DNA of 64,000 nt, from contig NC_089429.1 of NCBI RefSeq assembly GCF_026210795.1, positions 3,658,001 through 3,722,000 on the forward strand, given 5' to 3'. The stretch is from Rhizophagus irregularis (Eukaryota). Shown one piece after another: positions 741 through 35,035 of this stretch. The notes below the pieces were generated by a model. It was not told the origin of the DNA. It did not search any database and worked only from the letters and a program-made list of their open reading frames with translations. Every line of letters begins with the position of its first letter. Position 1 is the stretch's first letter. The position numbers and the translations under genes were made by a program.

Positions 741-1150
741 ATTCAGAAATAAAAAAGCAAGAAAAGGAATATTAATAACTTCTCTAAATCATGAAAAAAT
801 ATAACCTCCAAAAATACTCACGTTTTTGTAATTTAAAACTGAAGTCATTAATCCAGAAATGTTTCTAAACAAAAGAAAGGAACATTAGTAGCATTCTCAG
901 AACACAAAATAAACTACGAAGAAAAGAAAATACTTACAATGCTGAAATCCAAAGCTGAAATCCCTAAAAAAAAAAAGAAAAAAAATCACTAGTAATGTTT
1001 CCAGAACACAAAAAAAAGGCAAAAGATAAAATACTTACAATGCTAACTGAAAGTCTAAAGTTAAAATCTTTAAAAAAAGAAAAAAAAAGAAAAAAAAAGT
1101 AACAATAGTATTCCTATAACAAATAACACAAAAAATAAAAATAAAAAAAT
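740..1150 (-). repeat. Short micro-exon/intron-like array (3-4 units)
   Basis: Minus-strand GTGAGTA/GTAAGTA donors (tactcac ~815, tacttac ~931 and ~1032), CTAAT/CTAGT branch-like motifs, poly(T)-TAG acceptors. Confidence 0.5.
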
Positions 1151-2971: not shown

Positions 2972-3947
2972 TTTTTTAATAACTTCTTGTTAAAAGTATA
3001 GAAATAAAAGGCAAATAAATATAAATTAAAACAATAACAGGGTGCCAGCAGTATCTTACTTTGAAGAAATATAAGGCCTTTAATACTCCACAAAGACATT
3101 TTATATTTATAAGTTACGCTAAAAAACTAAAAGTTAGTCCCTCTAATCTGAAATACAGTCTGACGTCAAGTAGATCTATTCTTATTATCTGGCCATCTAA
3201 GCCTTATGTAATAAACAAAATGTTAATTATATAATTATTTGTTAACTAGTTCAATATACTATCTTACCAGCAAACTGTATGTCCAATACTTTTGAGTCCT
3301 GAACTTCTTCATTTGACAAATCTTCTTTTAACAAGTTATCAAGAACACCTTTCAATCATCAGGAAGTCATGGGAAAAATGTTCATCAAATGTACATCAGT
3401 CACTTGATGTACATCATAAAGAAGCGCTGAACATCAGACCTTGTAATGTACAATTGATATCACAACATTTGATATACATCACCTAATTTTAATGTCCATT
3501 AACGATGTACATTATTTTAAAGATAATAAACATCATATCAAATTTATATAAATTATGTTAATATGACAATGCTAAATGTTATTGAATAATAAATTATTTA
3601 TTAAATTACATTATAATAATCTATACTAAAGTCTACTAAATCTATACTAATCTAATTAACCCAAAAATATTAGCTAAATGTTTCTATTAAAAATAAACAT
3701 TTTATTTGAAAATCTCCTCAAATTCATCCAATAGCATTTGTGATTTATGCTTATTCACAAACGTCAATGACAATACGCACGACATATTTTTGATTCTCCA
3801 TCAACTGGTTCCACAAGAGCTAGTAGATTCAATCCTAACCTAACAAACATTCAGCCACACGACAGATTATCTTTGACTTCTTTACGTCATAACAATACGA
3901 CAGTTTCACATTTGTACTTGTCGTCACATGCTCCTGTGCCTTCTCTG

Positions 3948-5261
3948 TAGTGCTCTGAAAAAAATCCGATCTGATCTGGATCCGCAGATTTGATCTGAGT
4001 CAGATCTGGTTCGGTTTTCAAAATTCTGATCTGATCAATTTTAGATCAGATCAGATCATAACACAAGAAAATCTGATCTGATCTGAACAGATTCAGATCA
4101 GATTTTTTTTAAATAAAAAAAAAATTTTTTTTTTAAAAAACTTTTCCTGGATAAACGGACGAAGCCGGACGACCAAGATTTAAAAGAACGAACTAGGTAA
4201 GTTCATTTTTTTTTTGTTTTTTTTACTTGAGGGAACGTAATTAACGATTCCCTTCTTTTTTAGTAGGAAGCCTGGACAAACGAAGCCTAACGACACGACC
4301 AGGATTTAAAAAAAATGAATGAACTATGGTAAGTTCGTTCCTTTTTTTTATTTTTATTTTTTTATTTTTTATTTAAGGAAACGTAATTAACGTTCCCTTT
4401 CTTTTTTTAGGAAATCTGGACGTGAAACAAAGAAATGACCAGGATTTAAGAGAATGAACTATGGTAAGTTCATTTCTTTTATTTTATTTTATTTTTTTTA
4501 CTTAAGGAAACGTAATTAACGTTCCCTTTCTTTTTTTTTAGGAAACCTGGACATGAGACGAAGGAACGACCAGGATTTAAGAGAACGAACTATGGTAAGT
4601 TCGTTTCTTTTATTTTATTTTATTTTTTTTTACTTAAGGGAACGTAATTAACGTTTCCTTTCTTTTTTTTTAGGAAACCTGAACGTGAGACGAAGGAACA
4701 ACCAGGATTTAAGAGAATGAACTATGGTAAGTTCGTTTCTTTTATTTTATTTTATTTTTTTACTTAAGGGAACGTAATTAACGTTCCCTTTCTTTTTTTA
4801 GGAAACCTGGACGTGAGACAAAGCTGAACGACCAGGATTTAAAAAAAGAACAAACTATGGTAAGTTCGTTTCTTTTTTTATTTTTTTTATTTTTACTTAA
4901 GGGAACGTACTAATTAATGTTTCCTTTCTTTTTTTTAGAAAACCTGGACATGAGACGAAGCTAAACGACCAGGATTCAAAAAAAAAAATGAACTATGATA
5001 AGTTCGTTTCTTTTTTTTGTTTTTTTTCTTATTTTTACTTAAGGAACGTAATTAACGTTCCCTTCCTTTTTTTAGGATAAAACCAGATCCAAACCAGATT
5101 CAGATCAGATTCAAATCAGATTCAAATAGATCTAAACCAGATTCGGATCAAATTGAACCAGATCTGATCAGATTCGAATCAGATCAGATCTATTAAAATA
5201 AAAATCAGATCAGATCAGATTTAAGCTGAATCCAGTCTGAACAGATCTGTTATGAGCACTA
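3948..5261 (+). mobile_element. hAT-type non-autonomous element with an internal array of 7 exon/intron-like units
   Basis: TIR TAGTGCTC/GAGCACTA; perfect 8-bp TSD CTTCTCTG; subterminal GATCA/GATCT repeats; ~133-bp internal units. Confidence 0.9.
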
Positions 5262-5349
5262 CTTCTCTGTCCATACTAGAGTCACCATTACCGGCACGTG
5301 GTCTGAACGTTTCACCAATCCCATTATGGATAGTCCTTATAACGTCGTC

Positions 5350-7010
5350 TACAACTTACAATAAAAAGATAAAATAAAAAAAAATTAATTTAATAAAAAA
5401 AAGTTTCAAAGAGAAACTTCAAAACTTACCTGAGAAGCCGACCTAAAACTCGAAGATGATTCCTACAAAATAGACAAAAGAACTAGAAATGGTTAGTTTT
5501 TTCAAAACAAAACAGAAAAAATTTAAAGAAAAAAGTTTTGAAAGTAAACTAAACTTTCGAAACTTACTAATCATATCGTCTAAGATCTAGAAGCTCAATC
5601 TACCGGTACCTGCAAAAAAAAAGAAAAAAAAAATTAATAAATTAAAAAGTTCAAAAGTAAACTTTACTTTCGAAACTTACAAATCCTATCGTCTAAGATC
5701 CGGGAACTCAATCTACCAGTACCTGCAAAAAAAAATCAAAAAAAAATAAATAAATTTTAAAAAAGTTCCAAAGCAAAGATTTGCTTCAAAACTTAACAAT
5801 TCATTCTAAGACGCTAATCTACAGCAAGGTACCGTTCTATAAAAAAGAAACCACCGAAGTCAGCCATTTAACGTCAAAAAATCCAACTGAAGAAGTTCAA
5901 GAAGCCATCATGTAAAGATATTTTTAGTTTATTGGTTTCATCTAATGAGTTAGATATCAAAGAAGGTATCAAAAAATCATATTATTTAATCGAAAAATAA
6001 ACAAACCGATACCTACAAAAAAAATAATATAAAATTTAAAAAAAAATAAATTAGAAAAAAAAAGTTATGTTTTGAATTTCAAATCGAAACTTACCATATA
6101 TTCAAGTTCCAAAGCCGAAAGAATCATACCTACAAAAAAAAACAAGAAAATTAAAAAAAAATAAATTAAAAAAAAATAAATTAAAAAAACATAAGTTTCG
6201 AATCGAAACTTACCAGATTCAAGTCCCAAAGCCGAAGAAACCAGAACTCTACAAAAAAATACGAAAAGAAACGTTAGATTATTTCTTAAATTAAAAATAA
6301 CAAAATCCCAACCCTTTCCCATTACTACCTTAAAGTTCAGTTCCGTATTCAAGCCAGCGTCTTACTAGTAGGAGTTCTACAAAAAAAAAAAAGTTCATTT
6401 CTTTAATTAAAAATAACTGAACAAACCCCCTTCCCCATTTCTCACTATCTTAAAGTCCAGTTTCATCATATTCAAACTAGCGTCCTCCTAGTACGCGTCC
6501 TACAAAAAAAATAAAATAAGAAACGTTAAGTAGTTTCTTTAATTAAAAATAACAAACTTCCCCTTCCCCATTTCTCACTACCTTAAAGTCCAGTTTCGTC
6601 GTATTCAAGCCAGCGTCCTCCTAGTAGAAGTTTTACAAAAAAAAAAAAATAATGAAAAGAAACGTTAATTCTTTTCTTTAATTAAAAATAACAAACCCCC
6701 CCTTTCCCCATTTCTCACCACCTTAAAGTCCAGTTTCGTCATATTCAAGCCGGCGTCCTCCTAGTAGACGTTCTACAAAAAAAAAAATAACGAAAAGAAA
6801 CATTAGTTCATTTCTTTAATTAAAAATAACAAACCCCCTTCCCCATTTCTCACTATCTTAAAGTCCGGTTTTGTCATATTTAAGCTGGCGTTTTCCTAGT
6901 ACGCGTTTTACAAAAAAAATAAAATAAGAAACGTTAAGTAGTTTCTTAAATTAAAAAAAAAAATTAAAAAAAAAATTATGTAAGTTTCGAAACGAAACTT
7001 ACATTACTTT
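5350..7010 (-). repeat. Micro-exon/intron array (about a dozen or more units) including a ~125-bp tandem repeat at 6240-6960
   Basis: Repeated minus-strand GTAAGT or GTAGTG donors, CTAAC/TTAAC branch motifs, T-rich tract + TAG/CAG acceptors. Confidence 0.7.
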
Positions 7011-7702
7011 CAAGAAAAAGAGGCGGAAGAAAAGTGTGAGAAAAAAGGTGTGAGAAAAAAGGTGTGAGAAAAAGGGGAGAATGAAAGGGGAAGGGAAGGA
7101 CGATAGAGGAAGAAGTAAAGAAGGAAAAAGGAAGGGAAAGGAAAAAGTTTAAAAAAGATGATCCTTTTTTAAACTTTTGATACACGTAATGTGTGACGAC
7201 GTGATGTGTAATTAGTGCATTATTCGACCAACATCTAATCGTAGATCATGGTCAAATTTTTTAATTTTAAGTACTAGTCGAATATAGGCCGAATTTTACT
7301 AAGGCCGAATATTCCTTTTTCAACTAGTAGTAAGAGAAGGGAAATGTGAGGAAGAGAAAGGGTGGGAAAGAGGAAAATAAAAGGATAAAGAAGAGGAAGT
7401 TTCATTTATCATGTTGCTAAGATTATTTCACGTGACATGATAATAAATAGGAGCTGATATCATAAAAATTTATTTTTGAAAACATCATATTTGATAAACT
7501 TAATAAACATTGAATTTTCATTATTAAATGATGCACATCATGATAAAAATCTCATTGGTGATGTTTATTAATATTAAATATTACATATACATTTAAAATA
7601 ATAAAAATTACGATGTAAATGATTTGCAAAAATATACATTTGATGAATATTTTTCCCATGACTTCCTGATGATGTTCATAAACATTTTGAACGATCTTGC
7701 AC

Positions 7703-10533: not shown

Positions 10534-11287
10534 TAGAGGTTGGAACCGATTAACGTTAATCGATTAATTAATCGGTTAAGGCGGTTAATCGGTTAGAAGT
10601 ATCAAAAAATCGGTTAATCGACTAAATTAACCGACTAAATTAACCGATTAATTAACCGATTAATTTAGTCGGTTAAAATACTATGCAGATCATTTTCTCA
10701 AATTAGATGATTTTTTATCCCGAAATTCAGATAAGAAGTTTTTTTAATATACAGTATTGACAAACTTGTCAAAAAAATAAACCCATTTAAACTTTTTATA
10801 AATATATCGATTATAGGCCTATTGAAAATGAATCTCTATCTGGTCATTTATTATATATTTTTTTGTAACATATTTAAATGCTTTTATAAGTATTTATTTT
10901 TATTTAAAGTTATTTATGGCGCAGCTAAATGTCATGTGATATATATTACGCAAAATATTGGCGGAATAAAAATATCAACAACATTCCTAAAAACTTGCAA
11001 TTCAATTCCACTATTATTAATATTGTTAATTTCCCATTTAATTAAACCTTGAATTAAAGTCAGTTCTCATTTCCCATTAAAATTTGATATAACTTTTTGA
11101 AATAATACATGTATATTATTCATATAGGGATGCAAAATTTATATATTAACCGATTAATTAATCGGTTAACCTCATCACAAATTAACCGATTAATTAACCG
11201 ATTAATTAACCGATTATTATTCAGTTATGGTAACTGATTAATCGATTATTAATCGGTTAAGGTTTTTTTGGTCGGTTCCAACCTCTA
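10534..11287. mobile_element. hAT-type MITE inserted in the left MULE TIR
   Basis: TIR TAGAGGTTGGAACCGA; 8-bp TSD CATCCTGT; many subterminal TTAACCGATTAA repeats. Confidence 0.92.
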
Positions 11288-13769
11288 CATCCTGTTATAT
11301 ACTTTTTTTGTAACAACCTCGGATTTATCACATGACATTACACAAAATTCCAAAAAAAGAAATTATTTTTCCCATTAAATTTGGAGAAGTAGGTAGCACC
11401 AGTATTGTACAAATTTCCAAAAAAGGAAATTTTCAATCATGTCATTAATTCTGGCCAGAATTATACTTTTTTGCACCAAATCTTGTAATTATTAGAATTA
11501 GCATTAATTTTGACCAAAATTATGCTTCACAAATCGCATTATGATGTGTGTAACTATTGTAATTATTGTCATTGTTACACATATTATGCACTGTTATACA
11601 CGTTACGCTATAACGCCATTATGCCACCAAAACTTTTTCATTATTTTCACGATATAACACTTCGCTCGCTTCACTCAACTTTTTACTTCAAGTTTTTTTG
11701 TTTTACAAGTTTTTTTTGCCCTAAAATTAACAAGGATCATTACAAGATGGACGTATCTGAATTGAATGTTCAAAAATTTACGCTTATAATACCACATAAA
11801 AGTATGTAAGTTCTTTATTTATATGCTTTATGTGGATACAATATCGTTTCTTATTTCAAAACATACAAACTTAGAGGAAGAATTAGGACAAGTACACCAA
11901 AACGATACTAATAAGGGTATATAGTGTATAGTATTTCTAATAATCTATCTGATTTTGTTTTTGCAATATTCAAACTTTTGTTTTCTCATGATATAGATAT
12001 AGAACAGGTTGAACTGAGTGATACTACAGAACCTCAGAACCTAGAAAGTAAAGGTAAAATTATTAGTTTCTTCATTGTTTCTTGTGTAAATATTCTGCAA
12101 TTCATCCAAATAGTAACTAAATCATTTTACCTTTGAAGATTCAACTACAGATCTTTGTATTGGTTGTATCTTTAAGTCATAGGATGACATTGATAATGTC
12201 ATGAAAGCCTTCGGTAAAAAGAATGGATTTACAATTATAAAGAAACGATTAGGTCAACACAAGGATGGAAACATAAAGCATCGAAGTTTTGGATGTGAAT
12301 TCGGTGGCCATTATCAATCACATAAACAGGTTGATATTAATAGTCATCGAAACTGTAAAACAAAACGCCTACAATGCCCATGGAATGCAAATTTCAATCG
12401 CACCCAAAACTCTCAAATTATAAAACTTACCACTTTCAATAACTCTCACAACCATACGTTATTTCCTGCTGATACTGAAAAGTATTTACCAAAATACCGT
12501 TATATTCCTGATGATGTTCTTAAAGAAGTTCAATTTCTCACTGAATATGGAAATCTAGCGATCACTACTTAAAGAAAGTTATTAAAGGCAAAATTTCCAA
12601 CTCTCTCTATCCTTGATTGTGATCTCGCCAATGCAATACAAAAATATAAGGTTAAGCCAGATATAGTACATGATGCATCTCATTTACTGAAAACACTAAT
12701 CGAGTATAAGTCAAACAGTCCTGGGTGGTTCATTGAATTTCAACTAGATCAAGAAATAGGCTTTCTTGATTATTTTGGATGTCTCCAACACATATTGCTC
12801 TTTGGTTGGAGTATCACGATATCATTTTAAACGATAATACTGCAAAAACCAACCGATATAACATGCCACTTTCACTCTTTCTTGCCGTTGATAATAATAC
12901 TAGATCTCGTCTTGTTGCACAGGCACTTATATCTGATGAAACAACGGAATCTTATAAATGGATCTTAGAGTGCACAAAAAAAGCAACAATGATCAAACCG
13001 TTAGTATTTGTTACTAACACGGATCCTGCTATGGATGCGGCAATTGAACAAATATATGAAACAACTTACCCAATTCACTATATCTTTCATATAAGCGAAA
13101 ATCTGCCAAAAAACACGAAATTCAAACTTTCTAATTAGTACGATGATTTTGTTCGTGACTTTTATCATTATCGCAATAGTTTGTGTGAAAAGAAAAAAAC
13201 TTCTTATGAAAGATGGGCGAAATTATTGAAAAATATTCAAGTGTGAAAGATTATTTAATGAGAACCCTTTATCCCAGCCGGCGGGCATGGGCTCGAGCAT
13301 TCATGTCAAGAATATTTACTGCGGGATCTAAACCACTTCACGCGTGAAAGGTTATAATAACATTATTAAACATGAGTTAACATCAAATAGTACCTTGTAT
13401 AATCTCACAAGTGCCCTTGATGCTCGGCTCAAAAGTGAGGTAAAATGGAATCAATTCTTTGAATATCAAACCCTATCAACCTGTATGGGAATCGCATCAG
13501 TTGGCCATGATCTTTTTCCAAAAGTGGATAAATTATTGTCCGAATATTTGACTCCTCACATTTTATCTGCTGTACGTTCTGAAATAGCGCAATGTCTCTA
13601 TTTTATTGCAAGTAAAGTGGAGTCAAACATTATTGAGGTAATTTGAAGTCTATTTTTTTGTGTTAGAAATTAGTAACGAATCATTTTTTTTCATTTTTGC
13701 CATATAGGATCCAAGTGTTAGTATAACAGATGGATGTATTGAAGATAAATATGATGCCAAGCAAACCTT

Positions 13770-14064
13770 TCCTATAAAAAAAGAAAATTCGGAATCTGTC
13801 CTGAAAAGTATGGAAAATGTCCGGAAAATTTTCGTGCGTCCAGAAAACATTCAGAAACGGTCACGTTTTGGAACACTTTCCGGACGCACAAATTCCAGAC
13901 ATTTTCTTGACACTCCAGAATTTGTCCAGAATTTGTCCAGAATCGAGCGTCCAGAAAATGTTCCAAAACATGACCGTTTCCGAATGTTTTCCGGACGCAC
14001 GGAAAATTTCCGGACATTTTCCATACTTTTCAAGACAAATTCCGAATTTTCTTTTTTTATAGGG
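13770..14064. mobile_element. Near-fully palindromic MITE with CCCTA-type ends and 3-bp TSD (CACTA-like)
   Basis: TIR (C/T)CCTATAAAAAAAGAAAATTCGGAA extending almost to the centre; TSD CTT; removal restores DAKQTLLKSMIAEVG. Confidence 0.88.
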
Positions 14065-14236
14065 CTTATTAAAATCAATGATAGCTGAAGTTGGTGAAGA
14101 AAGAGTTTGTGAACTATGGAAGATTACGGACGTGCGACCTGATAACAAAAAACACATACATTTCGTAATAATAATTGATCCTGTCTCATATCTCTGTTTG
14201 TGTATGTCTAATATATCCCGTGGTATTGTTTGTCGT

Positions 14237-14630
14237 TAAAGCTCTACATGAGCCAGCTTGAGCCGAGCCAAGGGCTAGCTCGGCTTGGCTTAGCTTAGCT
14301 TGTTCCAAAAGTTCACAAGCTGGCTCATTTTCAAAATCATATAAAATTTATTATAACTAAAATTTCAAAACGTGATAACTTCGCCAATATTGCTCCAAAT
14401 TTAATGATTTTACTACCATTAGATTCGTCTCATCAAGAGGAATCGAATGGTAGTAAATTTATTAAATTTGGAGCAATATTGGCGAAGTTATCATGTTTTG
14501 AAACTTTAGTTTTAATTTTTAATAAATAGAGTCAGGGTAACATCAAGCCAAGCTATAACTGCAACTTAGTTTGGCTTGGCTTAGTGCAGCTTAAAAGCTC
14601 ACAAGCTGGCTCAGCTCATGTAGAGCACTA
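14237..14630. mobile_element. hAT-type MITE with a central ~145-bp palindrome
   Basis: TIR TAAAGCTCTACATGAGC/GCTCATGTAGAGCACTA; TSD TTTGTCGT/TTTGTCAT; interrupts the SWIM motif. Confidence 0.88.
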
Positions 14631-16089
14631 TTTGTCATCATTATTTTCGAGTAATGATGATTTTAGCAGTGGCTGGCTTTCAAATTCAGATGATACCTTC
14701 ACGATGGTATGTTGATGATCAAAAAAGTAAGGATGCTGGTGCAACAACTCTTTTTGTAAGCCAGGAGTCCATGTAAAATTTTTCGGGTATAATATTTGTT
14801 CCAAATCCTTTGGCTATTCCTACAACTGTTACCCATGTTTTATATCGTGCAACAAAAAAAAAGATGAAGTATGGAGAAGTGTAGGGCTTGCACGGCAGGC
14901 AACTCAACTTGCTGTTGAGCATGATAGTCATGGTGAGATAATTGGATGGTTAAAAAAGTTTATTGACAAGCACAAAGAAATAGAAATCGCGCAAAACCAA
15001 GACCTTATGGAAGTTCAAGTGAATAACAACAAAGAAAACGAACCTTTACAAGTTGAAAATCCGCTAGTTTCGCAACGTAAAGGGCGTCCAGAAACAAAGT
15101 GATATAAATCCTCAACTGAAACAAAGTCTCACGTGAAATATACCTGCAAAATGTGTGGTCAAACAGGACATAATAGCGCAAGGTGCCAGAATCGGTAATA
15201 TATCTATCTTTGTTTTGATTCTTTGTCTTGACTTATTTTTTGACAATTCACTTAATGATATGTTATGTTTGCAGAAGCCATTTACATTTATAGAGTGCAT
15301 ATAGTTAAGTTTCTTTAAATAAATGCGCGTTGATACTTGTACTGTGCATTTTATTTTTGTGCAATAATCAGTTCAAAGCCACCAAAATCACGTGATTTTA
15401 TAATAAATAAATATATAAATTCGATATTATAAAAAAAGCAATAAATTTAAAATTTTTAAATTTTATAAAATTTTTATCCGACCTAATTTTCTGAGGTTGT
15501 TACAAAAAAAGTGTATAACAGGATGTTACAAATAAATTTATCCATAATGTATACTAAAATTTTAATTATAGCTTAATTTTACTTCACATATTAATTTTTA
15601 TCTAAATTGGAGTATAATTAAGTAACTTTACTAATGAGATTTTGAGATTTAATATAAAATAAGTATTTCATCATATGGGCTGATTTGTCTACTCTGCATT
15701 AAAAAGAGTTATTAATTGATTTTCACAATTTTTATTACTCAAAATTGTTTTATAATACCAAAAAATCATCTGATTGATGATCACTTGACTAAATAATAAG
15801 TTAAACAAAAATTTACATTTGCAAAACTTAAATTATTAAATGTAAAAGAGTTGTGAAAAAACCCATTTCACTAATAAAAAACCTATTTCTCATATATATA
15901 GAATTTTTAACATATATTATTAAAAAGTAAGTATATTTTAATAAAATATAAAGTAAAATAAAAATTTATATAGCCTTAGTAGCTATAAATGTTTATAAAA
16001 GTATAATAAAAATATCATATAAAAGATGGTATCATAATAAATATTTTCAAACAATAAAAATAATTATTTTATGTCGGAGTTTGTATTAC

Positions 16090-17890: not shown

Positions 17891-18127
17891 ATATATATAA
17901 AGCTGAAATTAAACCTAAAAGCCAAATTTAAAGTCATAATAATTAAAATTAAGATGAAATTACATCAACTACTTTTTAGTTTTTTAGATTTTTTAGGCAT
18001 ACTTGCTTATGCAATAAGTAATCTCAATTGCATCGCCATGAGATCGCTTTAAAAAACCTGCCTCTTTGAATGATGATTTATTAATTACTTTATTTTGAAC
18101 AACTTTCATTGTTTTATGAATACATAA

Positions 18128-18304
18128 GGGAGCTTACAGATATTACGTAATTATCAAAGGAAGGAGGGGGTAACCAAAATCTTACGTTACACTTAATAAA
18201 ATATATAATTTATAAATATTATAATTTGATTGGTTATTAAATCTGACAAGGGGGGGGAGTAAATTTATATTAAACTGAATATTACGTAATATATGTAACT
18301 TCCC
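18128..18304. mobile_element. PIF/Harbinger-type MITE, copy 1
   Basis: TIR GGGAGCTTACA.ATATTACGTAAT; TSD TAA. Confidence 0.8.
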
Positions 18305-19791
18305 TAACTAATAAATCATATAAAGATTTATAAGAAATAATAACTAAATAACTAAATTTTCATGATAATAACAAATCATACCTTTAAATTAAAGACTGCA
18401 GCAAGTAGTAACAATACAGAAGAAAAAATCAGTCATCATCCAGAACTTCAAGTACTTCGCCCTGAATTAATTTACATACATATCCATAAGGATCATTATC
18501 TAGATATAATATCATTATGAAAAGCTCTACAATTGTAAAATTAATTAAGTCATAAAATCAAGTTGTTAAAAAACATCAATAATATTTATCAGAATAGATT
18601 ATTCCTATAATTTGTATTTTTTTTCTTTTATCAATATTCCAATTGACTCTTATTAATAATTTGACAATTATATTCTTAAGCATCTTTGGTAATTTTAATT
18701 TGGATTTAGTTAAAATTTTTATATCATATTCATCAGTAAATTTTCTTCTAGCCTCACCGGCTCTAAACTCATTATTGTCTTTATTGTCTACTGATTTTAA
18801 AATTCAGTCACTACAGTGATTAAGTTTTTTTCTATTACTTAATTTTTTTTCAATGTTCTTTTTATTTGATGTGGCTACACTAGTACTTTTTTCTCTTAAA
18901 GAATAATGAAATTTTAAATATTGTAGCTAAGCTAATATGTTGCAATAATAAAAAGTAAAATCATTACTGAACTATTAATATTCTATTAATATCACTAAAA
19001 TCTTGATCTATGATTAGAAATCATATATGACAGTTATACCATGATTTGAGATTTTTCTGTTTTAATAATTATTATAAAATAAAAAAAAAGTTTGACAAAA
19101 TTAATATTACAAATAAATTTCATATTATAAATAATTCATTAAATAGCTTTTATTATTTCATAAATATATGACTAATAAATTTCTTTTTAATTAACATAGT
19201 TATAAACTATATATTCTATATTATCTATATTATTATATATTAAAATTTCAAGTATTATTAATATGTATATTTTTGGGTAATTAATAAAATATAAATTCCA
19301 TTATTTTTGTTCAAGTAATGTATATATATACATATTTTATTTATATATATTTTTTCTTTCTTTTTTTATCAATAGAAATAAATAAATAAATAGTATCAAA
19401 TTTGCCAATAAACTGTCTCAAATAAAATCAGATTATTAAAAAATATCAATAATATTCATCAAAATAAACTATTTTTACAGTTTGTATTTTTTTCTTTTAT
19501 CAATATTCCAATTAATACTTCCCAATTATTTGATGATTATGTTTTTAAACATCTTTAATAATTTTAACTTAAATTCAGTTAAAATTTTTATGTTATATTC
19601 ATCAGTAAATTTACTTTTAATCTCAAATCTAGATGCATTTTTTTATTTTATATAATTTGTTTTCATTTTTCATGCTGTAGGATCTGAATTCAATTGCTTC
19701 ATCTATCATTAGATTTATTGCATTTCTTTTTAATTTAATTTTATAAAAATATTTATTATTATGGATTGTAGTAATATCATTGTTATACTTA

Positions 19792-20202
19792 AGGGAGTTA
19801 CACATATTACGTAATATTCAGTTTAATATAAACTTACTCCTCCCCTCCTTGTCAGATTTAATAACCAATCAAATTATAATATTTATAAATTATATAATTT
19901 TATTAAATGTAATGTAAGATTTTGATTACCCCATGATCCTACTTACTTATAAGATAGGTCACCCCCAGGCCTAAAGTAAAAATCATATATAAAATTCTTT
20001 GCAGATCCTATTATAAAAGGAAATTTTATGTTATATTGTTATAATTTTTTCCTTTTTAGCTAATTAACCAATAGAATTTAAGAAAAAAGTAAGGTAAAAA
20101 CTATTAGTAAAGGGCCAATTTTTTACAGTGACCTTTATTATAAATAAGCGGAGTCCTGTTACCCTCCCTCCTTTAATAATTACGTAATATGTGTAAGCTT
20201 CC
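19792..20202. mobile_element. PIF/Harbinger-type MITE, copy 2 (inverted), with a nested ~227-bp TIR insertion at 19932-20158
   Basis: Reverse-complement match to 18128-18304; TSD TTA; insert has CA(T/G)GA..CTTA.TTATAA ends with duplicated TTACCC. Confidence 0.75.
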
Positions 20203-22799
20203 TTATTCTATTTATATTAAACTTTTAGTTTTTTAGATTTTTTAGATATACTTGTGTAATGAGCAATCTCAATTGCATCATCATAAGATTGTTTTAAAAA
20301 ACCTGGTTTTTTGAATAATGATTTATTGATTTCTTTATTTTCAAATTGTGAATTGATCTATAAATTGTTATAATATATTCTTAATAATTATTATAAAATA
20401 AAAAAAAGTTTGACAAGATTAATATATTACAAATAAATTTCATATTATTAATAATTTATTGAATAGCTTTTATTATTTTATGAATACATGACTAATATGA
20501 CTAATAAATTTTCTTTTTAATTAACATAGTTGTGAACTATAAAATTTTGAATATATATTTTGTATTATTTATATTATTATAGATTAAAATTTCAAGTGTT
20601 ATTAATATATATATTTTTGAATAATTAATAAAGTATGAATTCCATTATTTCTATCCAAGTAGTATATATATATATACATATTTTATTTATATATATAATT
20701 TCTTTTTTTTTTATCATTAAAAATAAATAAAAAAATAAATAGCATCAAATTTGACAATAAACTGTTTTAAATAAAATCAGGTTGTTAAAGAATATTAATA
20801 ATATTCACAAAATAAATTATTTTTACAGTTTGTATTTTTTTTCTTTTATCAATATTCCAATTAATTCTTTCCAATTATTTGATAATTATGTTCTTAAACA
20901 TTTTTAGTAATTCAGTTAAAATTTTTATGTCATATTCATCAGTAAATTTACTTTTAATTTCAGATTTAGATGCATTTTTTATTTCATACAATTTGTCATC
21001 ATTTTCCATATTATAGAATGCTGTAGAATCTGAATTCAATTGCTTCATTTATCATTGGATTTATTGCATTTTTTTTTTAATTTAATTTCATAAAAATATT
21101 TATTATTATAAATTGTAGTAACGTCATTATTATACTTATTCTATTTATATTAAACTTTTAGTTTTTTAGATTTTTTTAGGTGTATTTGTACAATAAGCAA
21201 TTGCATTATTATAAAATCATTTTTAAAAAACTTGCCTCTTTAAATAATAATTTATTGATTTTTTTATTTTGAACAGCTTTTATTATTTCATGAATATATA
21301 ACTAATAAATCATATAAAGATTTATAAAAAATAATAACTTACAATTTGTCTTTATTTTCCATGTAGAATGCTATAAAATCTGAATTTAATTGCTGTATTT
21401 ATCATTGGATTTGTTGCATTTTTTTTTAATTTAATTTTATAAAAATATTAATTATTTAGATTGTAATAATGTCATTATTATGCTTATTCTATTTATATTA
21501 AACTTTTAGTTTTTTAAATATTTTAGATGTATTTATACAATGACCAATTTCAATTGTATTATCATAAAATCATTTTAAAAAACTTGTCTCTTTGAATAAT
21601 GATTTATTGATTTCTTTATTTTGAACAGCTTTCATTATTTCACAAATATATGACTAATAATAAATTATATAAAGATTTATAAGAAATAATAACTTACAAT
21701 TTATTTTTATTTTTCATGTAAAATGCTGTAGAATTTGAATTCAATTGTTACATCTATTATTGGATTTATTGCATTTTTTTTAATTTAATTCCATAAAAAT
21801 ATTTATTATTATGAATTGTAGTAATGTTATTATTTGTGCTTATTCTATTTATATTACTTATGCAATGAGCAATCTCAAATGCATTATTATAAAATCATTT
21901 TAAAAAACTTATTTTTTTAAATAATAATTTATTGATTTCTTTATTTTAAATAGCTTTCATTATTTTATAAATATATCATTAATAAATCATATAAAGATTT
22001 ATAAGAAATAATAATTTACAATTTGTCTTTATTTTCATATAAAATGCTAGAATTTGAATCCAATTGTCGCAGTCATCATTGGATTTGTTGCATTTTTTTT
22101 AATTTAATTCTATAAAAATATTTATTATTATAGATTGTAGTAATATTATTGTTTATTCTATTTATATATTTTTTTTTTAATTTTTAGTTTATTAATTATA
22201 ATACTTGGAATTATACAATATAAGTAAATTACATTACAAAATATACAGTAAATAGGTTAACTACTCCTGCAGTACAATGAGAATACATTAATAAACCTGG
22301 TGCAAATGCACCTATGAATTAAAAGAAAAAAGATGCAGGAAAAATAGAAACAAAAAAAAAAGTCCCACATACAAAAAAGAAAATAAAAAACAAATATGTA
22401 AAAATAAGGAAATAGTCAGTAATGAAGCCACCCTACTACCATTGGTAAATTTTTTAGGATAAAAATCTGCAAAGATCTCTGGCCTAAATTTCTGCACAGA
22501 TCTGCTACCCTATCAACACATGTCAGAGAAAATTTTTTAATAAAATCTATACAGATCTGCAAATGTTAAAAAATCTGCACAGAATTTTAAAAATAAATCT
22601 TCAGAATTTTTCAAAACAACTCAAATTCAGTTATCTGCTATTGAATGTTAACTAGTATCAATTTATTTAATTTATTTAATAAAAGTATTACAAATTATAT
22701 GTACAAATTAATTAAACTACACTAATTATTCTATACTACAAATTTATACGTTGTTAATAGTTTGGACATTGTTCCAGTTAGTTCGATTCTAACAAATAA

Positions 22800-25625
22800 T
22801 GGAGACCTACAAATGAAAAAAAAATTTCAAAGCAAGCAGCTTCAAAATATATAATCCAGCAGTCCAGAATCTAAACGCAAAAGAAACGATTATTAGTATA
22901 ACGATCATTAAAAAAAAAATATATAATCCAGCAGTCCAGAATCTAAACGTAAAAGAAACGATTATTAATATAACGATCATTAAAAAATAGAACTTTAAAG
23001 TATTTACCTTTGAAGTTTTTAAATACTTTAAAGTTCTTCATAATGGAAAACTGTAACCTAAAATAAAGAAAAAAATGAACATTAGTATAATATTCATTAA
23101 AGAAAGTAAAACAAAAAAAGAACTTCAAAGTGTTTACTTTCGAAGTTTTTTACTATTACAGTTTACCATCCTAAGGATTTTCAGCAAAATGTGAATCTAG
23201 AATCTAAAATAAAAGAAGAATGAACATTAGTTCACATTCGCTAAATAAAATTAATAAAAAAAATTTTATTCGAAGAAATACCTTCGAATTCTAAACATTT
23301 TGTTGAACAAAAAAAAATAAAAATATAATTTTAAAGATATTTACCTTAAAAATCCCTCCTTCTATTTCTTACATTCTAAGTCTGGTTCATTTAAAGAAGC
23401 TTGACAACCTATAAAATGAATAAAGAACATTAAAAATGTTCTTTTATAAGAAAAAAAAATTATAAAGTTTCACAATGAGACGTTGTGAAATTTACTTTTA
23501 TCCGTTTTAGGAATCTTTGAAGTACTGAAACTACAAAAAAAATAAAAATAAAAATAAAATGTTAGTTACATTTCATTTAAATAAAAACAGAAAAAAACAG
23601 AATTTTAAAGTTTACCTTCGAAATTCTGTTCAGAAGGAGTTTGGAGTGCTGTATTCTTATAAAGAAATAAAAATGAAATATTAGTCAACGTTTCGTTTAA
23701 ATAAAAAATAAGAAAAAATAAAAGAATTTTGAAATTTACCTTCAAAATTCTATTTAGAAAGTATTTATGAACTCGTTCATAGACATACAAAAAGAAGAGA
23801 AGCGAAACATTAGTAAACATTTCATTTTCATAAAAAAAGCAAAAAAAAAATTTTAAAAATTACTTCGAAATTTTGTTCAGAAATCTCAGAACCTAAAAGA
23901 AAAATAAAAAACAACCGGTTAGTAAAAATAAATTATAAATGAAAAACAAAACTGAAAAAAATACACTCACCCAAAGTCTTAGAGACTGAAATCTAAAGAA
24001 AAACACAAAAAGATAATGCAAATTCACCTATTTGGAGATTAACCAAAACTTAAAAGATGAAAAAAAAAACAAAGATTTCAAAACGAAAAACAAAAAAGAA
24101 AAAAACCTAATGGTAAATTTACTTATAGTCTTGGGGAATTACTGAAACTTAAAGAAGAAAGAAAGAAAAAGTTAGTAAAAAGAAATTTGAAACAAAAAAA
24201 ACAAAAACAAAAGAATAAATGCAAACTCATCTGAAGTCTTGAAATCTTTACGTCTTATAACCTAAAAAAAAAATAAAAAACATTAGTATGATTAACATTT
24301 TGTTAAATAAAATCAATAAAAAAATGATACATTTCGAAGTCTTACAAAGTTCAAACTTATTTTTTGGCTTCCTTTACCTAAAAAAAGAAGACGAAACATT
24401 AGTTAATGTTCGTTAAAAAAAAATTATTTTTTTTTAAAAAGTTTATTTACCTTTAACAGAAGTCCAGAACTTTCTTTCAGCTTCCTCTACCTAAAAAAAA
24501 GAAGTACGAATATTAGTGAACATTCGTTTAAATGAAAAAAAAATAAAAATTCGAAGATTTTACCTTCAAAATTCTGTTTTAAAGGCAAAAATCTACAAAA
24601 AATAAAACTGAAATATTAGCTAATGTTTCGTTTAAATAAAATAAAAAAAAGAATAGAATTTTGAAGTATTACCTTCAAAATTCTGTCTGGAAGCCAAAAA
24701 CCTAAAAAAAATAAAAGAATGTTAGAAACTTTCTTTTATAAAAATAAAAAAAAACATAAGTTTCGTGATGAAAGTTCATCATAAAACTTACCATATTGAA
24801 GTTTTGGACCTTAGAGTACTAGAACCTATAAAATAAAAATAAAAAAAATGTTAGAAACGTTCTTAATAAAATAAAAAAAAATTTAAAGTTTCACAACAAA
24901 ATGTTACAAAACTTACCCTTTACTTATTTTAGGAATCTTTAGAGTACTGAAACCTACAAAAAAAAAGAAACCTAAAACACTTATTAGTAATGTTTCATTT
25001 AAATAAAAAAAATCAGAATTTCAAAGTTTACCTTCGAAATTATATCCAGGAGTGTCTGGAATGCTGTATTTTACAAAATACAAAAAAAGAAACGTTAGAA
25101 AATATTTTGTTAAATAAAATTATTAAAAATTTTTTTTTTTGAAGGTTTTACCTTTGATATAGAAGTCCAGAATTCGTTTTTAGCTTCCTTTACCTAAAAA
25201 AAAATATGAATATTAGTTAACGTTCATCAATAATTTAATTAAAAAAAATTCGAAGGTTTACCTTTGAAATGATTGCAAAAAACAAACAAAATAAATAAAT
25301 GAAAACATTAGTAAATATTTCATTAAATAAAACAAAAAAAAAATAAACGAAAAATTATTAGTATTTTGAAGATAAATACCTTCGAAATCCTGTTTTAGAA
25401 GCGATCGGAAAGCCATAGAAACCTATAAATTAAAAAAACTAAAACATTAGCCAACGTTTTGTTTAGAAAACAAAAAAACTTGAATTTTAAAGTTTACCTT
25501 GAAATTCCACGCAGAAATCAACAGAAACTATAGACCTACAAAATAATGAAAACGAAATGTTAGTTAACGTTTTATTTAATAAAAATAAAAAAAATAAAAT
25601 TTTGAAGGGTTTACCTTTGAATTCC
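22800..25625 (-). repeat. Array of roughly 20-25 micro-exon/intron units (further units at 26625-27000)
   Basis: Minus-strand AAG|GTAAA/GTAAT donors (ttaccttcgaa on +), CTAAT/CTAAC branch motifs (cattag/gttag on +), poly(T)-TAG acceptors every ~100-130 bp. Confidence 0.75.
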
Positions 25626-26094
25626 AGTATCTGTTAATAATAATGTTTAACAACAACATAAAATAAATTCATTCAGTGTTGTCATGGGACAATGTTTGGG
25701 ATATGTTACACAAAAAAGAAATGATAACCCCTTGAAATTTTTCTATAATAACCTTGTTCAATACTTAGCAAAAATGTTTAGCATCCAATTATGCATAAAT
25801 ATATATAATTTTTGTAATTACAGAAGAGTACAGACAGAATGTGAACATGTTCAGAACAACCAAAAAAAGCTGCAGACATCAAAAATATACAACACTGAAT
25901 TCACTGATAAATAGTATACCTAATTTAAGGTGGCCTATTCTTCATTCTACCAGTATGATGAACACCAAGTATCATAACCATTAATTCAAATAATACAAAC
26001 TCAAGTCTATCGTTCAAGATGCTGTTGGTGATGTATCATGGTATATGCATTCCTTATGTTTAGATTTCTGTTAAAGTATTATATTTAATGTACA

Positions 26095-26448
26095 CTAGTG
26101 TTCACCTGTTGTCTACGACAACAGTTAATATGTAATTCCGGCCAGAATTAAAAGATCTGCAAAGAATTTCCTTTTTTGGAAATTTGAGCAACACAATTTT
26201 TTAATTTCTCTGAAAAGTAACAGAAGACAAAATTTCCTTTTTTGGAAATTTGCGTAACCGACAATTTCCTTTTATGGAATCCGGTGTAACCCAAAGTTTC
26301 AGTTTTTTGCCAGAAATAAAATTTCCTTTTTTGGACTTGTGTAACATTGGCGACGAATAGGAGTAGGGTTACACAATTCAAATGACTTATTTATATGGTT
26401 AATCTAAACATAACGCCCACGTGATTGCAGTGTTTTTAAATATATAGA
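26095..26448 (-). mobile_element. Non-autonomous Helitron
   Basis: Minus strand starts TC, ends CTAG, inserted between A and T without a TSD; subterminal hairpin CTGTTGTC-n3-GACAACAG; internal ~40-bp repeats. Confidence 0.82.
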
Positions 26449-27529
26449 TGTTTGATGATTATAGAACAATATTGGATTCTTCTTTCATTGATTCTAATAC
26501 TGTTGCTTCTAATATGATGAATCGACTCAATCATTTTCCAATAATAAGCAATTCTCCAATTTTATTATTTAATAGTTTTGTGTAAAAAACTTATGAGATA
26601 CAGCAAAGGTCAGGTACTATTGGTGTTTGACTACAAAAAAAATAAAAAATGAATGTTAATGAAACGTTCGTTAAAATAAAAAAATTTCATTTTGAAAGTT
26701 ATTACCTTTGAAATATTTGAAATAAGACAGTATCTAAAAAATAAAAGAATAACAAATGTTAAAACATTTATTAAAAGAAAGTAAAAAAAAAGAACTTTGA
26801 AGTATTACATTTGAAGTTCTTTCAAATGGGAGCCTGTGACTTAAAAAATAGGAGAAATGAACAATAGTGAAGTATTCGTTAAAAGAAGAAACTTAATTTC
26901 GAGGTATTACCTTTGAAGTTCTTTTAAATAGGAATCCAGAACTCCAAGGGAGCTGTCCTTTAAAATAAACAGAAGTAAAGAATGTTAGTAAACGTTCTTA
27001 ATGTTAGTTAATATTTTTCACACGAATCTTGCCATTTTTGCCCATAAGACTTCATAAGACTTTGAAAGTCAAAAAAAACTTTTTTTAACAAAAATCCTAA
27101 GAAAATTCAAAGTTAGGTGAATTTACTAATTTTATTCGTCGACTTCGAAGCTTGAAAAAAATAGTAATCTTTGAGTATTTTTTTAAAAAAAAACTGTGAT
27201 AGAAATAATTGTCTTTAAAAAGTGTTATAAATTATTTCTTTAAAGTCTTGTAAAAAATTGTTTCTTTAAAAAAGTTTAAATTTGGTTAAAATTAATTAAC
27301 TCGAGTCAATGCAAAGTTTATCAAATAAAAAAAGAAAAATGTGAAGATCTCCAAATATTTTTGTGCGAAGTGTTTTAAAAATATGTGATTTTGGAGATTA
27401 TCACAGATTTGTTTATAAAATATCTTTGAAAAAAATAAAAAGATGAATTCTGCAGTATTGCGCAGATTTTTACTAAAAATTGCAGATTATTGCAATTCTA
27501 CATCCTAAAAAGTTTACTGATGACAATTA

Positions 27530-30095
27530 CACTTCTAAAACTAAGATTATCTAACCATTCTTTTGAATTTATATTATGATACTCCTAGTTTTCTAAACAT
27601 TAACCTTATTTTTGCTAATATAATAAGCTGTCAATACCGTCTAAGGCCTTATCTATGTTCTTGATTTCCTTAGTCACTTTTTGCTTCTTACTCAACTGAG
27701 TGTTAGTATTAATTGTTCGATTCTTGAAGTTGCCTTTTTGATTCATCTTCTGAGGGCATCTACTTCTTTGTTTCAAGTTAGAGGTAAAGTACTTCATCTA
27801 ATCAGTAAATTCGTTCAAACTAAATGGCTTACCAATGATCTTTTTCAAATCAGCCCATGATTCGTAGTAAGTTATTAATTTACAGATACCCTGATCTTGA
27901 ATTAATTAAAATGCTTTACACCTAAAGGTATAACAATAGAATGAGCAGAATTATCCAGATATAAAGTAGCTGTAATTACTGAAGCAAGAACTCCTTTAAA
28001 CATAGCCTGAAATCATTCTCATTTTTTTCTTTGTTTGAGATAATCTCTTAATTAATTTGAATTTAATTGATACTGTAATAGTAACGTATTTAAAACTTGC
28101 TTTTATTTACCTTTGGGCGTAAAAAAAGTGGTTTTTGCTGAGAGGATACTAATTGGTTCCTTTTGTTGTACTGTAGCTTTTGATTGGTGTTTAGATGTTT
28201 TAAGCACTTTTAAAATTTCTATATCCATCAGTTAATTTTCTAAAGATTTGAATATGTCTGGCATTTGTTGTTAGTGCTCCTAACAGATCAGTTCAGACTG
28301 GATTCAGCTTAAATCTAATCTGATCTGATTTTTATTTTAATAGATCTGATCTGATCCGAATCTGATCAGATCTGGTTCAATTTGATCTGAATCTGGTTTG
28401 GATCCATTTGAATCTGATTTGAATCTGATCTGAATCTAGTTTGGATCTGGTCCTTGTCCTAAAAAAAGGAAGGAAACGTTAATTACGTTCCTCAAGTAAA
28501 AAGAAAAAAAAACAAAAAAAAGAAACGAACTTACCATAGTTCGTTCTTTTTTTTGAATCCTAGTCGTTCAGCTTCATCTCACGTCCAGGTTTCCTAAAAA
28601 AAAAAAGAAAGGGAACGTTAATTACGTTCCCTTAAGTAAAAATAAAAAAATAAAAAAAAGAAACGAACTTACTATAGTTCGTTCTTTTTTTTAAATCCTG
28701 GTCGTTCAGCTTCGTCTCATGTCCAGATTTCCTAAAAAAAAGAAAGGGAACGTTAATTAGTATGTTCCCCTTAAGTAAAAATAAAAAAAAATAAAAAAAA
28801 AAATGAACTTACCATAGTTCGTTCTTTTTTTTGAATTTTGGTCGTTCAGCTTCGTCTTACGTTCAGGTTTCCTAAAAAAAAGAAAGAGAACATTAATTAG
28901 TACGTTCCCTTAAGTAAAAATAAAAAAAAATAAAAAAAAGAAACGAACTTACCATAGTTCGTTCTTTTTTTTAAATCCTGGTTGTTTAGCTTCGCCTCAC
29001 GTTCAGGTTTCCTAAAAAAAAGAAAGGGAATGTTAATTACATTCCCTTAAGTAAAAATAAAAAAAAAAACAAAAAAAGAAATGAACTTACCATAGTTCGT
29101 TTTTTTTTTTAAATCCTGGTCATTCAGCTTCATCTCACATCCAGGTTTCCTAAAAAAAAAGAAAGGAAATGTTAATTACGTTCCCTTAAGTAAAAAAAAT
29201 AAAATAAAATAAAAGAAATGAACTTACCATAGTTCGTTCTCTTAAATCCTGGTTGTTCCTTTGTCTCACGTTCAGGTTTCCTAAAAAAAAAAGAAAGGGA
29301 ACGTTAATTACATTCCCTTAAGTAAAAAAAATAAAATAAAATAAAAGAAATGAACTTACCATAGTTTGTTCTTTTTTTTAAATCCTGGTCGTGTCGTTAG
29401 GTTTCGTTCATCTAGGCTTTCTACTAAAAAAGAAGGGAACTGTTAATTATGTTCTCTCAAGAAAAAAACAAAAAAAAAAAATGAACTTACCTAGTTTGTT
29501 CTTTTAAATCTTGGTCGTCTAGCTTCGTCTGTTCGTCCAGAAAAAGTTTTTTAAAAAAAAATTTTTTTTTTTTATTTAAAAAAAAATTTGATCCAAATCT
29601 GTTCAGATCAGATCAGATTTTCTTGTGTTATGATCTGATCTGATCTACAGATTAAAATTTTGAAAACCGAACCAGATCTGACTCAGATCAACAGATCAGA
29701 TCAGATTTTTTTTGGGGTACTATTTATTGTAGTAACGTCATCTGTTGTTTCATGAACTCTTTGCAAACACTTTCCATTCCTTTAATTACACTAACTTAAA
29801 TAAAGTCAAAAGACTTGTAAAAAAGAAAGAGTAAGTGATATAAAGACTGTAAGTCACCGATACTAAAAGTTGCAAGAGCCTCATGATATTTCATAAGTAA
29901 TTTCATATACAGTTCTTCATCTTCAGTAAGTTTTTCAACGGTTTGAAAAATATTTTCATTTGTTAAACTGAAAGAAAAATATTTCTTAGAATATGGCTAA
30001 CCGATTCAAAGTAGAAAGTTCTGTCCACAGCTGTATCAAAGTCATTACCCTCAAAAAGGGTTTTAGAAATGTTTTAATTCGATAAAGAAGCCATA
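27530..30095 (-). pseudogene. Decayed ORF resembling ORF1 of fungal non-LTR retrotransposons, split by the hAT element at 28272-29722
   Basis: Fragments such as FKGVLASVITATLYLDNSAHS..GVK and KLITYYESWADLKKI; multiple stops; family assignment from recall only. Confidence 0.35.
28272..29722 (-). mobile_element. Second, inverted copy of the hAT element at 3948-5261, with 8 exon/intron-like units
   Basis: Reverse-complement identity to 3948-5261; TIR TAGTGCTC/GGGTACTA; TSD TTTGTTGT/TTTATTGT. Confidence 0.9.
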
Positions 30096-33975: not shown

Positions 33976-35035
33976 TGTTACGCAGTAAAATGTTGCGCAG
34001 CAATCATGTGATATAACTGGACCTGTGATGCTGATCAATGTAGCAAATGTTGAATATGTTTGATATGTTCGATATGTTGCATATGTCCGATATATAGAAT
34101 ATATAGAATATGTAGTATATATGGAATATATAGAACATATAGCATATATAGGATATATAGCATATGTAACATATGTTAAACATTTTTAGTTTGGAAATTT
34201 ATGTATACACAGTGAAATTCGATAAACCGGATCTATCGGTTCCACTAAAAATATCCGGTTTATCGGGATATCTGGTTTAGCGAAAAAATTTTGATATATT
34301 GAAAATCTATTATATTGAATTTTTAAAAAATTTTCATGCTAATAAAACTAATATACACTATAATTTGATTTTTTCATCTAGTTTTAAGTCATAGAGGTCA
34401 TGAAAATGAATATAAAATATTTTAAAAGTAATACATAACTTCAGCCGGAATTAAGATTTTTATAATTCTGGCCAAATTTAGGATTTACCGCATCACGTCA
34501 CTTAAATTTTATTGGTTCCCAGTCACGTTATCCGGTTTATCGAATCATTTTTACTATAGCTGGTTAGAAAATTGATCCGTTATAGCGAATATCGAGCTTT
34601 TACTAGTAAACTCCGGTATATCGAACCTATTTTAATATACGTGATTTGGTTCCAGCAAAAAAGTCTAGTTTAGGCGCAAATCCGGTTTATCGAAGATCCG
34701 GTTTATCGAATTTCACTGTGTATATAGACCTGTAATTAGACCTGTAATTAAAGAATTCAATATAAGAATGTATGTGAAGAATTTAATTAATAAAATGTTT
34801 ACCCTTTAATATACACCTTAATTTTAAGTTTGGTTTTATATGGTTAATCTGCCTTCCCTTATTTATGTTTGATTGTATGCGCCAGTATGAAGCGATACTC
34901 TATTCACATCTGATTGGATTGATTTTAACATATACGTTGATCCTTAAAATTACCTTCTGCTTTATTAAATATAAACATTTTTTAATGTATAGCTTATTTT
35001 TAAGCTTATAAGAACTGACCTCTAAGGCTCTAACA
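33976..35035. mobile_element. Probable solo LTR inserted in the LINE relic
   Basis: TGTTA...TAACA ends; 4-bp TSD ATAC; internal 9-bp tandem repeats at ~34050-34180. Confidence 0.65.
34208..34720. mobile_element. Tc1/pogo-type MITE nested in the solo LTR
   Basis: TIR CACAGTGAAATTCGATAAACCGGATCT; TA TSD. Confidence 0.9.

What the first reader, a model, noticed from the sequence alone, without database searches (positions are those of the whole stretch)
3948..5261. hAT element whose only cargo is a tandem array of micro-exon + spliceosomal-intron units
Seen: between the TIRs lie 7 units of a ~53-60-nt purine-rich 'exon' followed by G|GTAAGT, a T tract, TTAAC, a pyrimidine tract and TAG, i.e. 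a complete fungal intron consensus repeated every ~133 bp. Exon lengths vary and the one counted exactly is 53 nt, so no reading frame is kept. An inverted copy at 28272-29722 with its own TSD has 8 units, so the array transposes as a unit and changes copy number. Inference: a mobile, intron-dense non-coding transcription unit. It could recruit spliceosomes to license or protect transposon RNA, feed small-RNA production through stalled splicing (cf. Cryptococcus SCANR), or seed new introns. I know of no description of such cargo.
Basis: partly seen in the sequence, partly recalled or inferred. Interest (0 to 1): 0.85.

Follow-up and report, generated by a model that had tools for sequence, protein, structure and literature searches.

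The report
Fungal jumping DNA carrying stacked introns
A small mobile DNA element of a mycorrhizal fungus carries only a stack of 7-8 near-identical short-exon-plus-intron units that encode no protein; it appears in RNA at low level and mostly unspliced, and is most likely the leftover non-coding leader of a transposase gene that has been lost.

Summary
Two copies (3948-5261 +, 28272-29722 -; 91% alike) have short terminal inverted repeats, different 8-bp target duplications and 7 or 8 intron-like units between 53-65-nt exons that keep no reading frame. Relatives are confined to Rhizophagus irregularis and R. diaphanus. In one polyA run, reads cover the array but not the left end and fade towards an AATAAA in the right end, which fits an internal transcription unit. 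However, intron 3' parts are covered as deeply as exons, and only one contig, in a run of uncertain type, shows an exon-exon join (the tool masks the donor side, so splicing is under-counted). Splice signals are not significantly better conserved than flanks (p 0.23). Unrelated arrays of the same build lie outside the element, and other hAT-like elements in the window have none. Best reading: a non-autonomous hAT-like element carrying a tandemly amplified non-coding leader as a passenger. A splicing-based silencing role stays possible but unsupported. The scan had not noted this family before, but noted analogous arrays in other genomes.

The parts
3940..3947 (+). Left target-site duplication of copy A (8 bp)
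   Evidence: exact repeat at 5262-5269
3948..4130 (+). Left TIR (8 bp) and subterminal region rich in GATC repeats; likely transposase-binding and promoter region (inferred)
   Evidence: 13 GATC in the first 180 nt, 0 in the array; no polyA reads at 3908-4123 although DNA contigs cover it
4197..5075 (+). Array of 7 intron-like units (67-82 nt) and 6 internal exons (53-65 nt); branch site inside a hairpin; 7th donor mutated to AT
5076..5261 (+). Last exon, right subterminal GATC repeats, AATAAA at 5197, right TIR
   Evidence: AAUAAA is the main poly(A) signal of R. irregularis (PMC10234402 section 18)
5262..5269 (+). Right target-site duplication of copy A
28272..29722 (-). Copy B: same element with 8 introns (29490-28459), its own 8-bp TSD (1 mismatch), AATAAA at 28336

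Best explanation
This is a transposase-less DNA element with hAT-type ends, likely moved by a transposase made elsewhere, whose interior is a tandemly amplified run of non-coding exon-plus-intron units that is likely the leftover leader of a lost transposase gene and rides along as a passenger. Shown: the ends, two different target duplications, further insertion flanks, unit-number change, no reading frame, CpG-biased decay, low-level RNA reads over the array. Inferred: RNA starts just inside the left end and ends near the AATAAA of the right end; units were gained and lost by unequal exchange or slippage; an internal deletion removed the transposase between the leader and the right end; the hairpin over the branch site slows splicing, so most molecules stay unspliced.
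For: Ends and TSDs; GATC subterminal repeats 13/0/11 in left end/array/right end. DNA contigs of run X3 join element ends to other flanks (table 8 records 17, 21, 23). First and last units are more alike between copies than within a copy, and the copies differ in their numbers of 53-nt and 59-nt units. PolyA run X24 has depth 0 at 3908-4123, where DNA run X3 has 61-877, about 2-53 over the array bins, and 7.7, 3.3, 1.3 across the right end; AATAAA at 5197 and 28336. One public gene model joins an array exon to a BED zinc finger (P0027; PF02892, E 2.9e-5, above cut-off), the N-terminal domain of hAT transposases (recalled). No extra conservation of splice signals; CpG sites mutated 28 of 154 vs 23 of 682. 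Arrays of this build are common in the window.
Against: No autonomous parent was found: no genome is held and four collection scans found nothing. The transposase link is 1 of 3 gene models in which the array runs into a long downstream piece (P0027, P0028, P0034); the other two have no Pfam hit, and for P0034 the Atlas gave a different lead (Cas12f1-like TNB, 24% of members). P0027 may be a predictor's join to a neighbouring gene. The RNA strand is unknown (both mates equal). The conservation test has 11 related units and little power. All 15 acceptors and 14 of 15 donors are intact, which selection would also give.
Confidence: 0.5

Rival explanations
1. One reading: the array is kept because it engages the spliceosome. 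Strong donors with a hairpin-masked branch site would stall splicing and feed small-RNA silencing of the family (as SCANR does in Cryptococcus), or would mark the RNA as self.
For: Near-perfect splice signals in 15 units; branch-site hairpin in the element's introns and in 10 of 22 and 3 of 9 acceptor-like sites of two unrelated arrays, but not in 2 coding-gene introns; polyA reads mostly unspliced; R. irregularis makes small RNAs from TEs (49% of loci) and unannotated regions (41%) (PMC8647823 passages); SCANR described in PMC5851062 passages.
Against: No significant excess conservation of signals. No small-RNA data were available. Only 2 control introns were folded. Recent tandem duplication alone explains the uniform signals. 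Other hAT-like elements here lack arrays.
Confidence: 0.2
2. The element captured one exon-intron unit from the genome's common non-coding intron arrays (transduplication) and amplified it as an internal satellite, as known for MITEs with internal tandem repeats; it never was a transposase leader.
For: Unrelated arrays of the same build at 5380-7050 and 23000-27100; short matches between their intron tails and the element's (73-93% over 27-78 nt); MITEs with internal arrays of variable copy number are described (PMC12628747 passages); capture of gene pieces by Turmoil-1 (PMC2572040 abstract).
Against: No exon similarity to the other arrays in the window. RNA appears to begin and end inside the element, as a transposon's own unit would (inferred). 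P0027 links the array to a BED finger.
Confidence: 0.2
3. The array encodes repetitive peptides, as the public gene models imply.
For: 29 public protein records relate to these models, most joining the units at the same donors and acceptors.
Against: No exon is a multiple of 3; the longest stop-free stretch after in-silico splicing is 54 aa. The models switch frames, nearly all are single-member clusters, the array part has no Pfam family, and 8 of 29 use a join that is best read as a donor shifted by 4 nt to keep a frame (inferred). None lists a Logan assembly as source.
Confidence: 0.04
4. The element seeds new introns or exons into host genes (introner-like).
For: Some gene models splice neighbouring coding pieces into or out of the array (P0004, P0027, P0028, P0034).
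Against: The element as a whole is not bounded by splice sites; the 53-65-nt exons and the terminal regions would stay in the mRNA and break frames. The fused models are predictions only.
Confidence: 0.06

Closest known systems
Non-autonomous hAT elements
   Same: 8-bp TSD (predominant for hAT, PMC5499845 passages), short TIR, short subterminal repeats at both ends, no transposase; hAT is among the recently expanded families of R. irregularis (PMC8647823 passages).
   Different: The interior is a regular array of exon-intron units; no autonomous partner identified here.
MITEs and DNA transposons with internal tandem arrays (Xenopus miDNA4 and Xstir, Helitron/Helentron central arrays)
   Same: Conserved ends around a central array that changes copy number (PMC12628747 passages).
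   Different: Here each unit is a complete spliceosomal intron plus a short exon; at 1.3-1.45 kb it exceeds the 1-kb MITE limit used for R. irregularis (PMC11075540 passages).
Transduplicating elements (Pack-MULEs, Turmoil-1 of C. elegans)
   Same: A TIR element carrying exon-intron structure (PMC2572040 abstract; Pack-MULEs in PMC5499845 passages).
   Different: No protein-coding source gene found; the piece is non-coding and tandemly amplified.
SCANR substrates of Cryptococcus (poorly spliced transposon transcripts)
   Same: Transposon-derived RNA with introns that appear poorly spliced (PMC5851062 passages).
   Different: There the introns lie in coding transposon genes and siRNA production was shown; here no small-RNA or spliceosome data exist.
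Introners / introner-like elements
   Same: Many sequence-similar introns with stable hairpins, linked to a transposon (10.1101/2024.06.04.597373, abstract start; the hairpin feature of fungal introner-like elements is recalled).
   Different: Introners insert singly at new gene positions and are removed whole; these introns are stacked head to tail inside one element.

Membership tests
hAT superfamily | 8-bp target-site duplication | tested here: met
   exact in copy A, 1 mismatch in copy B; 8 bp also occurs in MULEs and, recalled, in P and Merlin
hAT superfamily | Short TIR beginning with YAG (recalled feature) | tested here: met
   8-bp perfect TIR starting TAG in copy A; 6 of 8 in copy B
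hAT superfamily | Short subterminal repeats at both ends (recalled feature) | tested here: met
   GATC 13 left, 0 in array, 11 right
hAT superfamily | hAT transposase (BED, DDE core, dimerisation domain) in the element or in an autonomous partner with the same ends | tested here: inconclusive
   none in either copy; no partner found; one gene model joins an array exon to zf-BED
MITE (definition of PMC11075540) | TIRs, no transposase domain, 50 bp to 1 kb | tested here: not met
   1314 and 1451 bp
Spliceosomal (U2-type) introns | GT donor, branch motif, pyrimidine tract, YAG | tested here: met
   14 of 15 GT donors, 15 of 15 TTAAY and TAG (acceptors were found by search)
Spliceosomal (U2-type) introns | Removed from RNA in vivo | tested here: inconclusive
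   one contig with an exon-exon join in run X19 (RNA is a guess); no splice joint listed for polyA run X24, but the donor side is masked and 180 loose-end rows were not shown
Introner | Whole element forms one intron at new, dispersed gene positions | tested here: not met
   element ends are not splice sites; introns are internal and tandem
Micro-exon genes (schistosome MEG type, recalled definition) | Symmetric exons in multiples of 3 that build a protein | tested here: not met
   0 of 13 internal exons is a multiple of 3; longest open stretch 54 aa
SCANR-type silencing substrate | Stalled spliceosomes and siRNA from the transcript | not testable with these tools
   no small-RNA or spliceosome-bound RNA data
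Transduplicating element (Pack-MULE type) | Identifiable host source of the internal piece | tested here: inconclusive
   only short intron-tail matches within the window; whole genome not held

The most novel reading that the evidence does not exclude
Rhizophagus genomes hold a widespread, undescribed class of non-coding transcription units built from stacked short exons and introns whose branch site is folded into a hairpin. Transposons carry and amplify them, and their slow splicing is the signal that routes these RNAs into, or shields them from, the fungus's expanded small-RNA system. This element would be a minimal mobile version of that device.
Probability: 0.17. Interest if true: 0.8.

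Novelty: new variant of a known kind. Interest (0 to 1): 0.45.

Why it matters
If it is a passenger, it still explains a set of spurious 'hypothetical proteins' in Rhizophagus annotations (29 records here) and shows that a fungal DNA transposon can spread ready-made intron stacks that could act as exon traps. If splicing of the stack controls silencing, it would be a compact, multi-copy natural test system for how intron content marks transposon RNA, in a symbiont with many Argonaute genes (40 AGO-like copies, PMC11075540 passage). Ten full-text searches and term searches within five papers on Glomeromycota genomes or transposons turned up no description of such arrays. The library lacks most subscription papers, and the curated TE libraries of those papers were not seen.

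Tried and rejected
No whole genome is held, so copies could not be aligned genome-wide. Right-end pattern scans of viral and metagenome contigs: 0 hits. Protein-based scans: 109 pattern matches in metagenomes, none confirmed; 0 in viral contigs. No RNA holder on record was listed among 24 runs (no evidence either way). A second read-laying was not obtained, so a direct count of spliced against unspliced reads and a positive control on a coding gene are missing. Looking for transcript-derived proteins that span exon joins found none with a Logan source. Rfam: 13 matches, all far below gathering scores. Pfam on 18 flanking ORFs found nothing above cut-off. My recalled impression that the tail of P0034 is a hAT transposase C-terminus was not supported (Pfam none; Atlas lead to another family). 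The Atlas look-up for the tail of P0028 did not complete. Run X15 was set aside as RNA evidence because its depth profile follows the DNA run X3. X24 depth at 4988-5041 and 5366-5400 was set aside as unrelated T-rich reads (loose ends). A first conservation count was replaced, which leaves out the first unit of each copy (a distinct subtype), the homopolymer tracts and the acceptors (found by search, so circular). Look-ups of earlier scan notes by sequence, place and words gave nothing on this family.

Full report
Observation. Copy A is 3948-5261, bounded by an 8-bp perfect TIR and an exact 8-bp TSD. Copy B is 28272-29722 on the minus strand with a different TSD; the two are 91% alike (1168 of 1284 aligned bases). 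Both ends are packed with GATC-containing repeats (13 left, 11 right, 0 in the array of copy A). Between them lie 7 (A) or 8 (B) units with donor, T tract, TTAAY, pyrimidine tract and TAG, 67-82 nt long, separated by exons of 53-65 nt. None of the 13 internal exons is a multiple of three, and after in-silico splicing the longest stop-free stretch is 54 aa. The seventh donor of copy A is AT; reads and contigs from other copies have G there (table 3), so this is a private change. An intron model scored 37 hits in the window against 4.1 in shuffles.

Organism and range. A protein of the window clusters at 90% with Rhizophagus irregularis proteins. Searches with the element's right-end frame and with an array-derived gene model returned 5 of 8, 21 of 40 and 3 of 94 candidates, and a profile search of 1.84 billion representatives returned 14. 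All named hits are R. irregularis or R. diaphanus gene models. Twenty of 24 listed sequencing runs hold the stretch or part of it, in 11 studies. DNA contigs of run X3 join the element's ends to other flanks (table 8), so the family is dispersed and the array travels with it.

How the array changes. Alignment of the 13 internal units shows positional subtypes shared between the copies (a distinct first unit, a distinct last unit, a unit with a 3-nt insertion), while A has three 53-nt units and B one. This fits gain and loss of whole units by unequal exchange or slippage (inference). Substitutions fall mostly on CpG sites (28 of 154 vs 23 of 682 elsewhere, p about 1e-9), as expected for methylated repeats; TE CpG methylation in this fungus is reported in PMC8647823 (passages). 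Donor and branch positions changed in 1 of 110 cells against 23 of 682 (p 0.23). The direction favours conservation, but the test is weak and the units are related, so it neither shows nor excludes selection.

RNA. One lay of reads was obtained (4 of 24 listed runs; likeness 85). In the polyA run X24 (about 24% of the run read) 451 reads were laid, 404 only in part and 377 under 95% alike, so they come mostly from other copies or from unrelated T-rich RNA. Depth is 0 over 3908-4123, where the DNA run has 61-877, about 2-53 over the array bins, and falls to 7.7, 3.3 and 1.3 across the right end. Run X19 (RNA is a guess) also lacks the left end. DNA contamination or read-through from a flank would not give this shape, so I infer a unit that starts inside the left end and ends near the AATAAA at 5197 (28336 in B), the main poly(A) signal of this species (56.7% of sites, PMC10234402 section 18). 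The strand cannot be read: both mates are equal. Against efficient splicing: intron 3' parts are covered as deeply as the next exon (25 vs 28, 44 vs 24, 35 vs 22, 51 vs 50, 10 vs 13 reads); the first pair is the cleanest, since all 25 reads share one intronic variant. No splice joint is listed for X24. For splicing: one X19 contig has, before 4541, 18 letters that read as the end of an exon, which is the exon-exon join. An intron-less DNA copy is not excluded as its source. The tool masks the T tracts that begin at the donors, dropped rows there, hid 180 loose-end rows, and may lay spliced reads poorly, so splicing is under-counted. Verdict: likely transcribed at low level, probably spliced now and then, efficiency unknown and likely low.

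Gene models. Of 29 records, 17 contain the donor-acceptor join in one frame, 9 and 8 in the other two, and 8 use a join best explained by a donor shifted 4 nt to keep a frame (the explanation is my inference). They are predictions, not evidence of splicing or translation. One (P0027) continues from an array exon into a BED zinc finger. Two others continue into pieces with no Pfam family; for P0034 the Atlas gave an unrelated lead. This single link, the internal start just behind the left end and the poly(A) signal in the right end match the layout of a transposase transcription unit from which the coding part was deleted. That is the basis, a modest one, for the leader reading. An earlier scan note reached a similar reading for a diatom element; it is a lead, not support.

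Context changes the picture. The array is not unique to this element. Unrelated arrays of short exons and T-rich introns run on the minus strand at about 5380-7050 and 23000-27100; 22 of the 37 model hits lie there and 12 in the element. They share only short intron-tail matches with the element. At least six other short TIR elements with 8-bp TSDs in the window gave no intron-model hits in an array, one of them sharing the same terminal 8 bases at its right end. So mobility does not need an array, and arrays were not seen to need these ends. A recurring feature is a hairpin around the branch site: z -1.3 to -7.5 in the element's 15 introns, below -1.5 in 10 of 22 and 3 of 9 acceptor-like sites of the other arrays (mononucleotide shuffles), absent in the 2 coding-gene introns folded. 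Pairing of the branch A and the start of the pyrimidine tract would be expected to hinder U2 binding (established splicing mechanism; effect untested here).

Comparison with what is known. It works like a non-autonomous hAT element with an internal tandem array. hAT membership is met for TSD, TIR and subterminal repeats and open for the transposase. It is not a MITE by the size limit used for this species, not an introner and not a micro-exon gene. Papers seen: passages of PMC8647823, PMC11075540 (plus a term search of 9,058 characters of its supplements; its TE library was not seen and may hold this family), PMC11952901, PMC13465315, PMC5751038, PMC12628747, PMC5851062, PMC5753468 and PMC5499845; passages and section 18 of PMC10234402; the abstract of PMC2572040; a term search and the abstract start of 10.1101/2024.06.04.597373. 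The words intron and splic do not occur in the main text of PMC8647823 or PMC11075540. PMC13465315 reports predicted introns in Glomeromycota Crypton-like elements, but within coding regions and at variable positions. Ten searches found no description of this cargo.

Verdict. A real and apparently undescribed variant of a known kind of element. The unusual part is the unit, and the wider class of non-coding intron arrays it points to. A function for splicing is unshown. Interest 0.45.

Noticed in passing
window 23000-27100, minus strand: Long array of short exons (about 28-42 nt where neighbours were both found) and T-rich introns, unrelated in sequence to the element; 17 intron-model hits, 22 acceptor-like sites, 10 with a hairpin at the branch site. 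No long ORF; boundaries not determined.
   Followed up: partly
window 5380-7050, minus strand: Second unrelated array behind a CT-rich stretch (7020-7160) that looks like a transcription start region; several donors are folded into a 10-bp hairpin (6130-6213: z -3.4). Copy A is inserted antisense just downstream; one X19 contig spans the right junction.
   Followed up: partly
window 780-1140, minus strand: A few more short exon/intron units of the same build, next to a 73-82-bp tandem repeat at 118-682.
   Followed up: no
window 10534-11287, 34210-34718, 49822-50269, 59503-59791, 25674-25897, 14237-14630: Six other short TIR elements with 8-bp target duplications; the last shares the terminal 8 bases of this element at its right end and sits inside a MULE remnant.
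   Followed up: partly
window 12183-15100, plus strand: Broken MULE/FAR1 transposase gene (FAR1 E 3.8e-8, MULE E 9e-17) interrupted by small inverted-repeat elements.
   Followed up: partly
window 37434-39961, minus strand: Gene with two tandem MLKL_N-like domains (below the Pfam cut-off) and a tyrosine-kinase-like domain.
   Followed up: partly
window 4263: The first acceptor is a tandem TAG-TAG; many other copies have lost the first AG (12 of 27 X24 reads, about 38% of X3 depth) and would still have the second.
   Followed up: no
window 53159-54258, 17957-22179 and 61096-64000: A 437-nt inverted repeat (94%) and two AT-rich tandem families with periods of about 355 and 545-558 bp.
   Followed up: no
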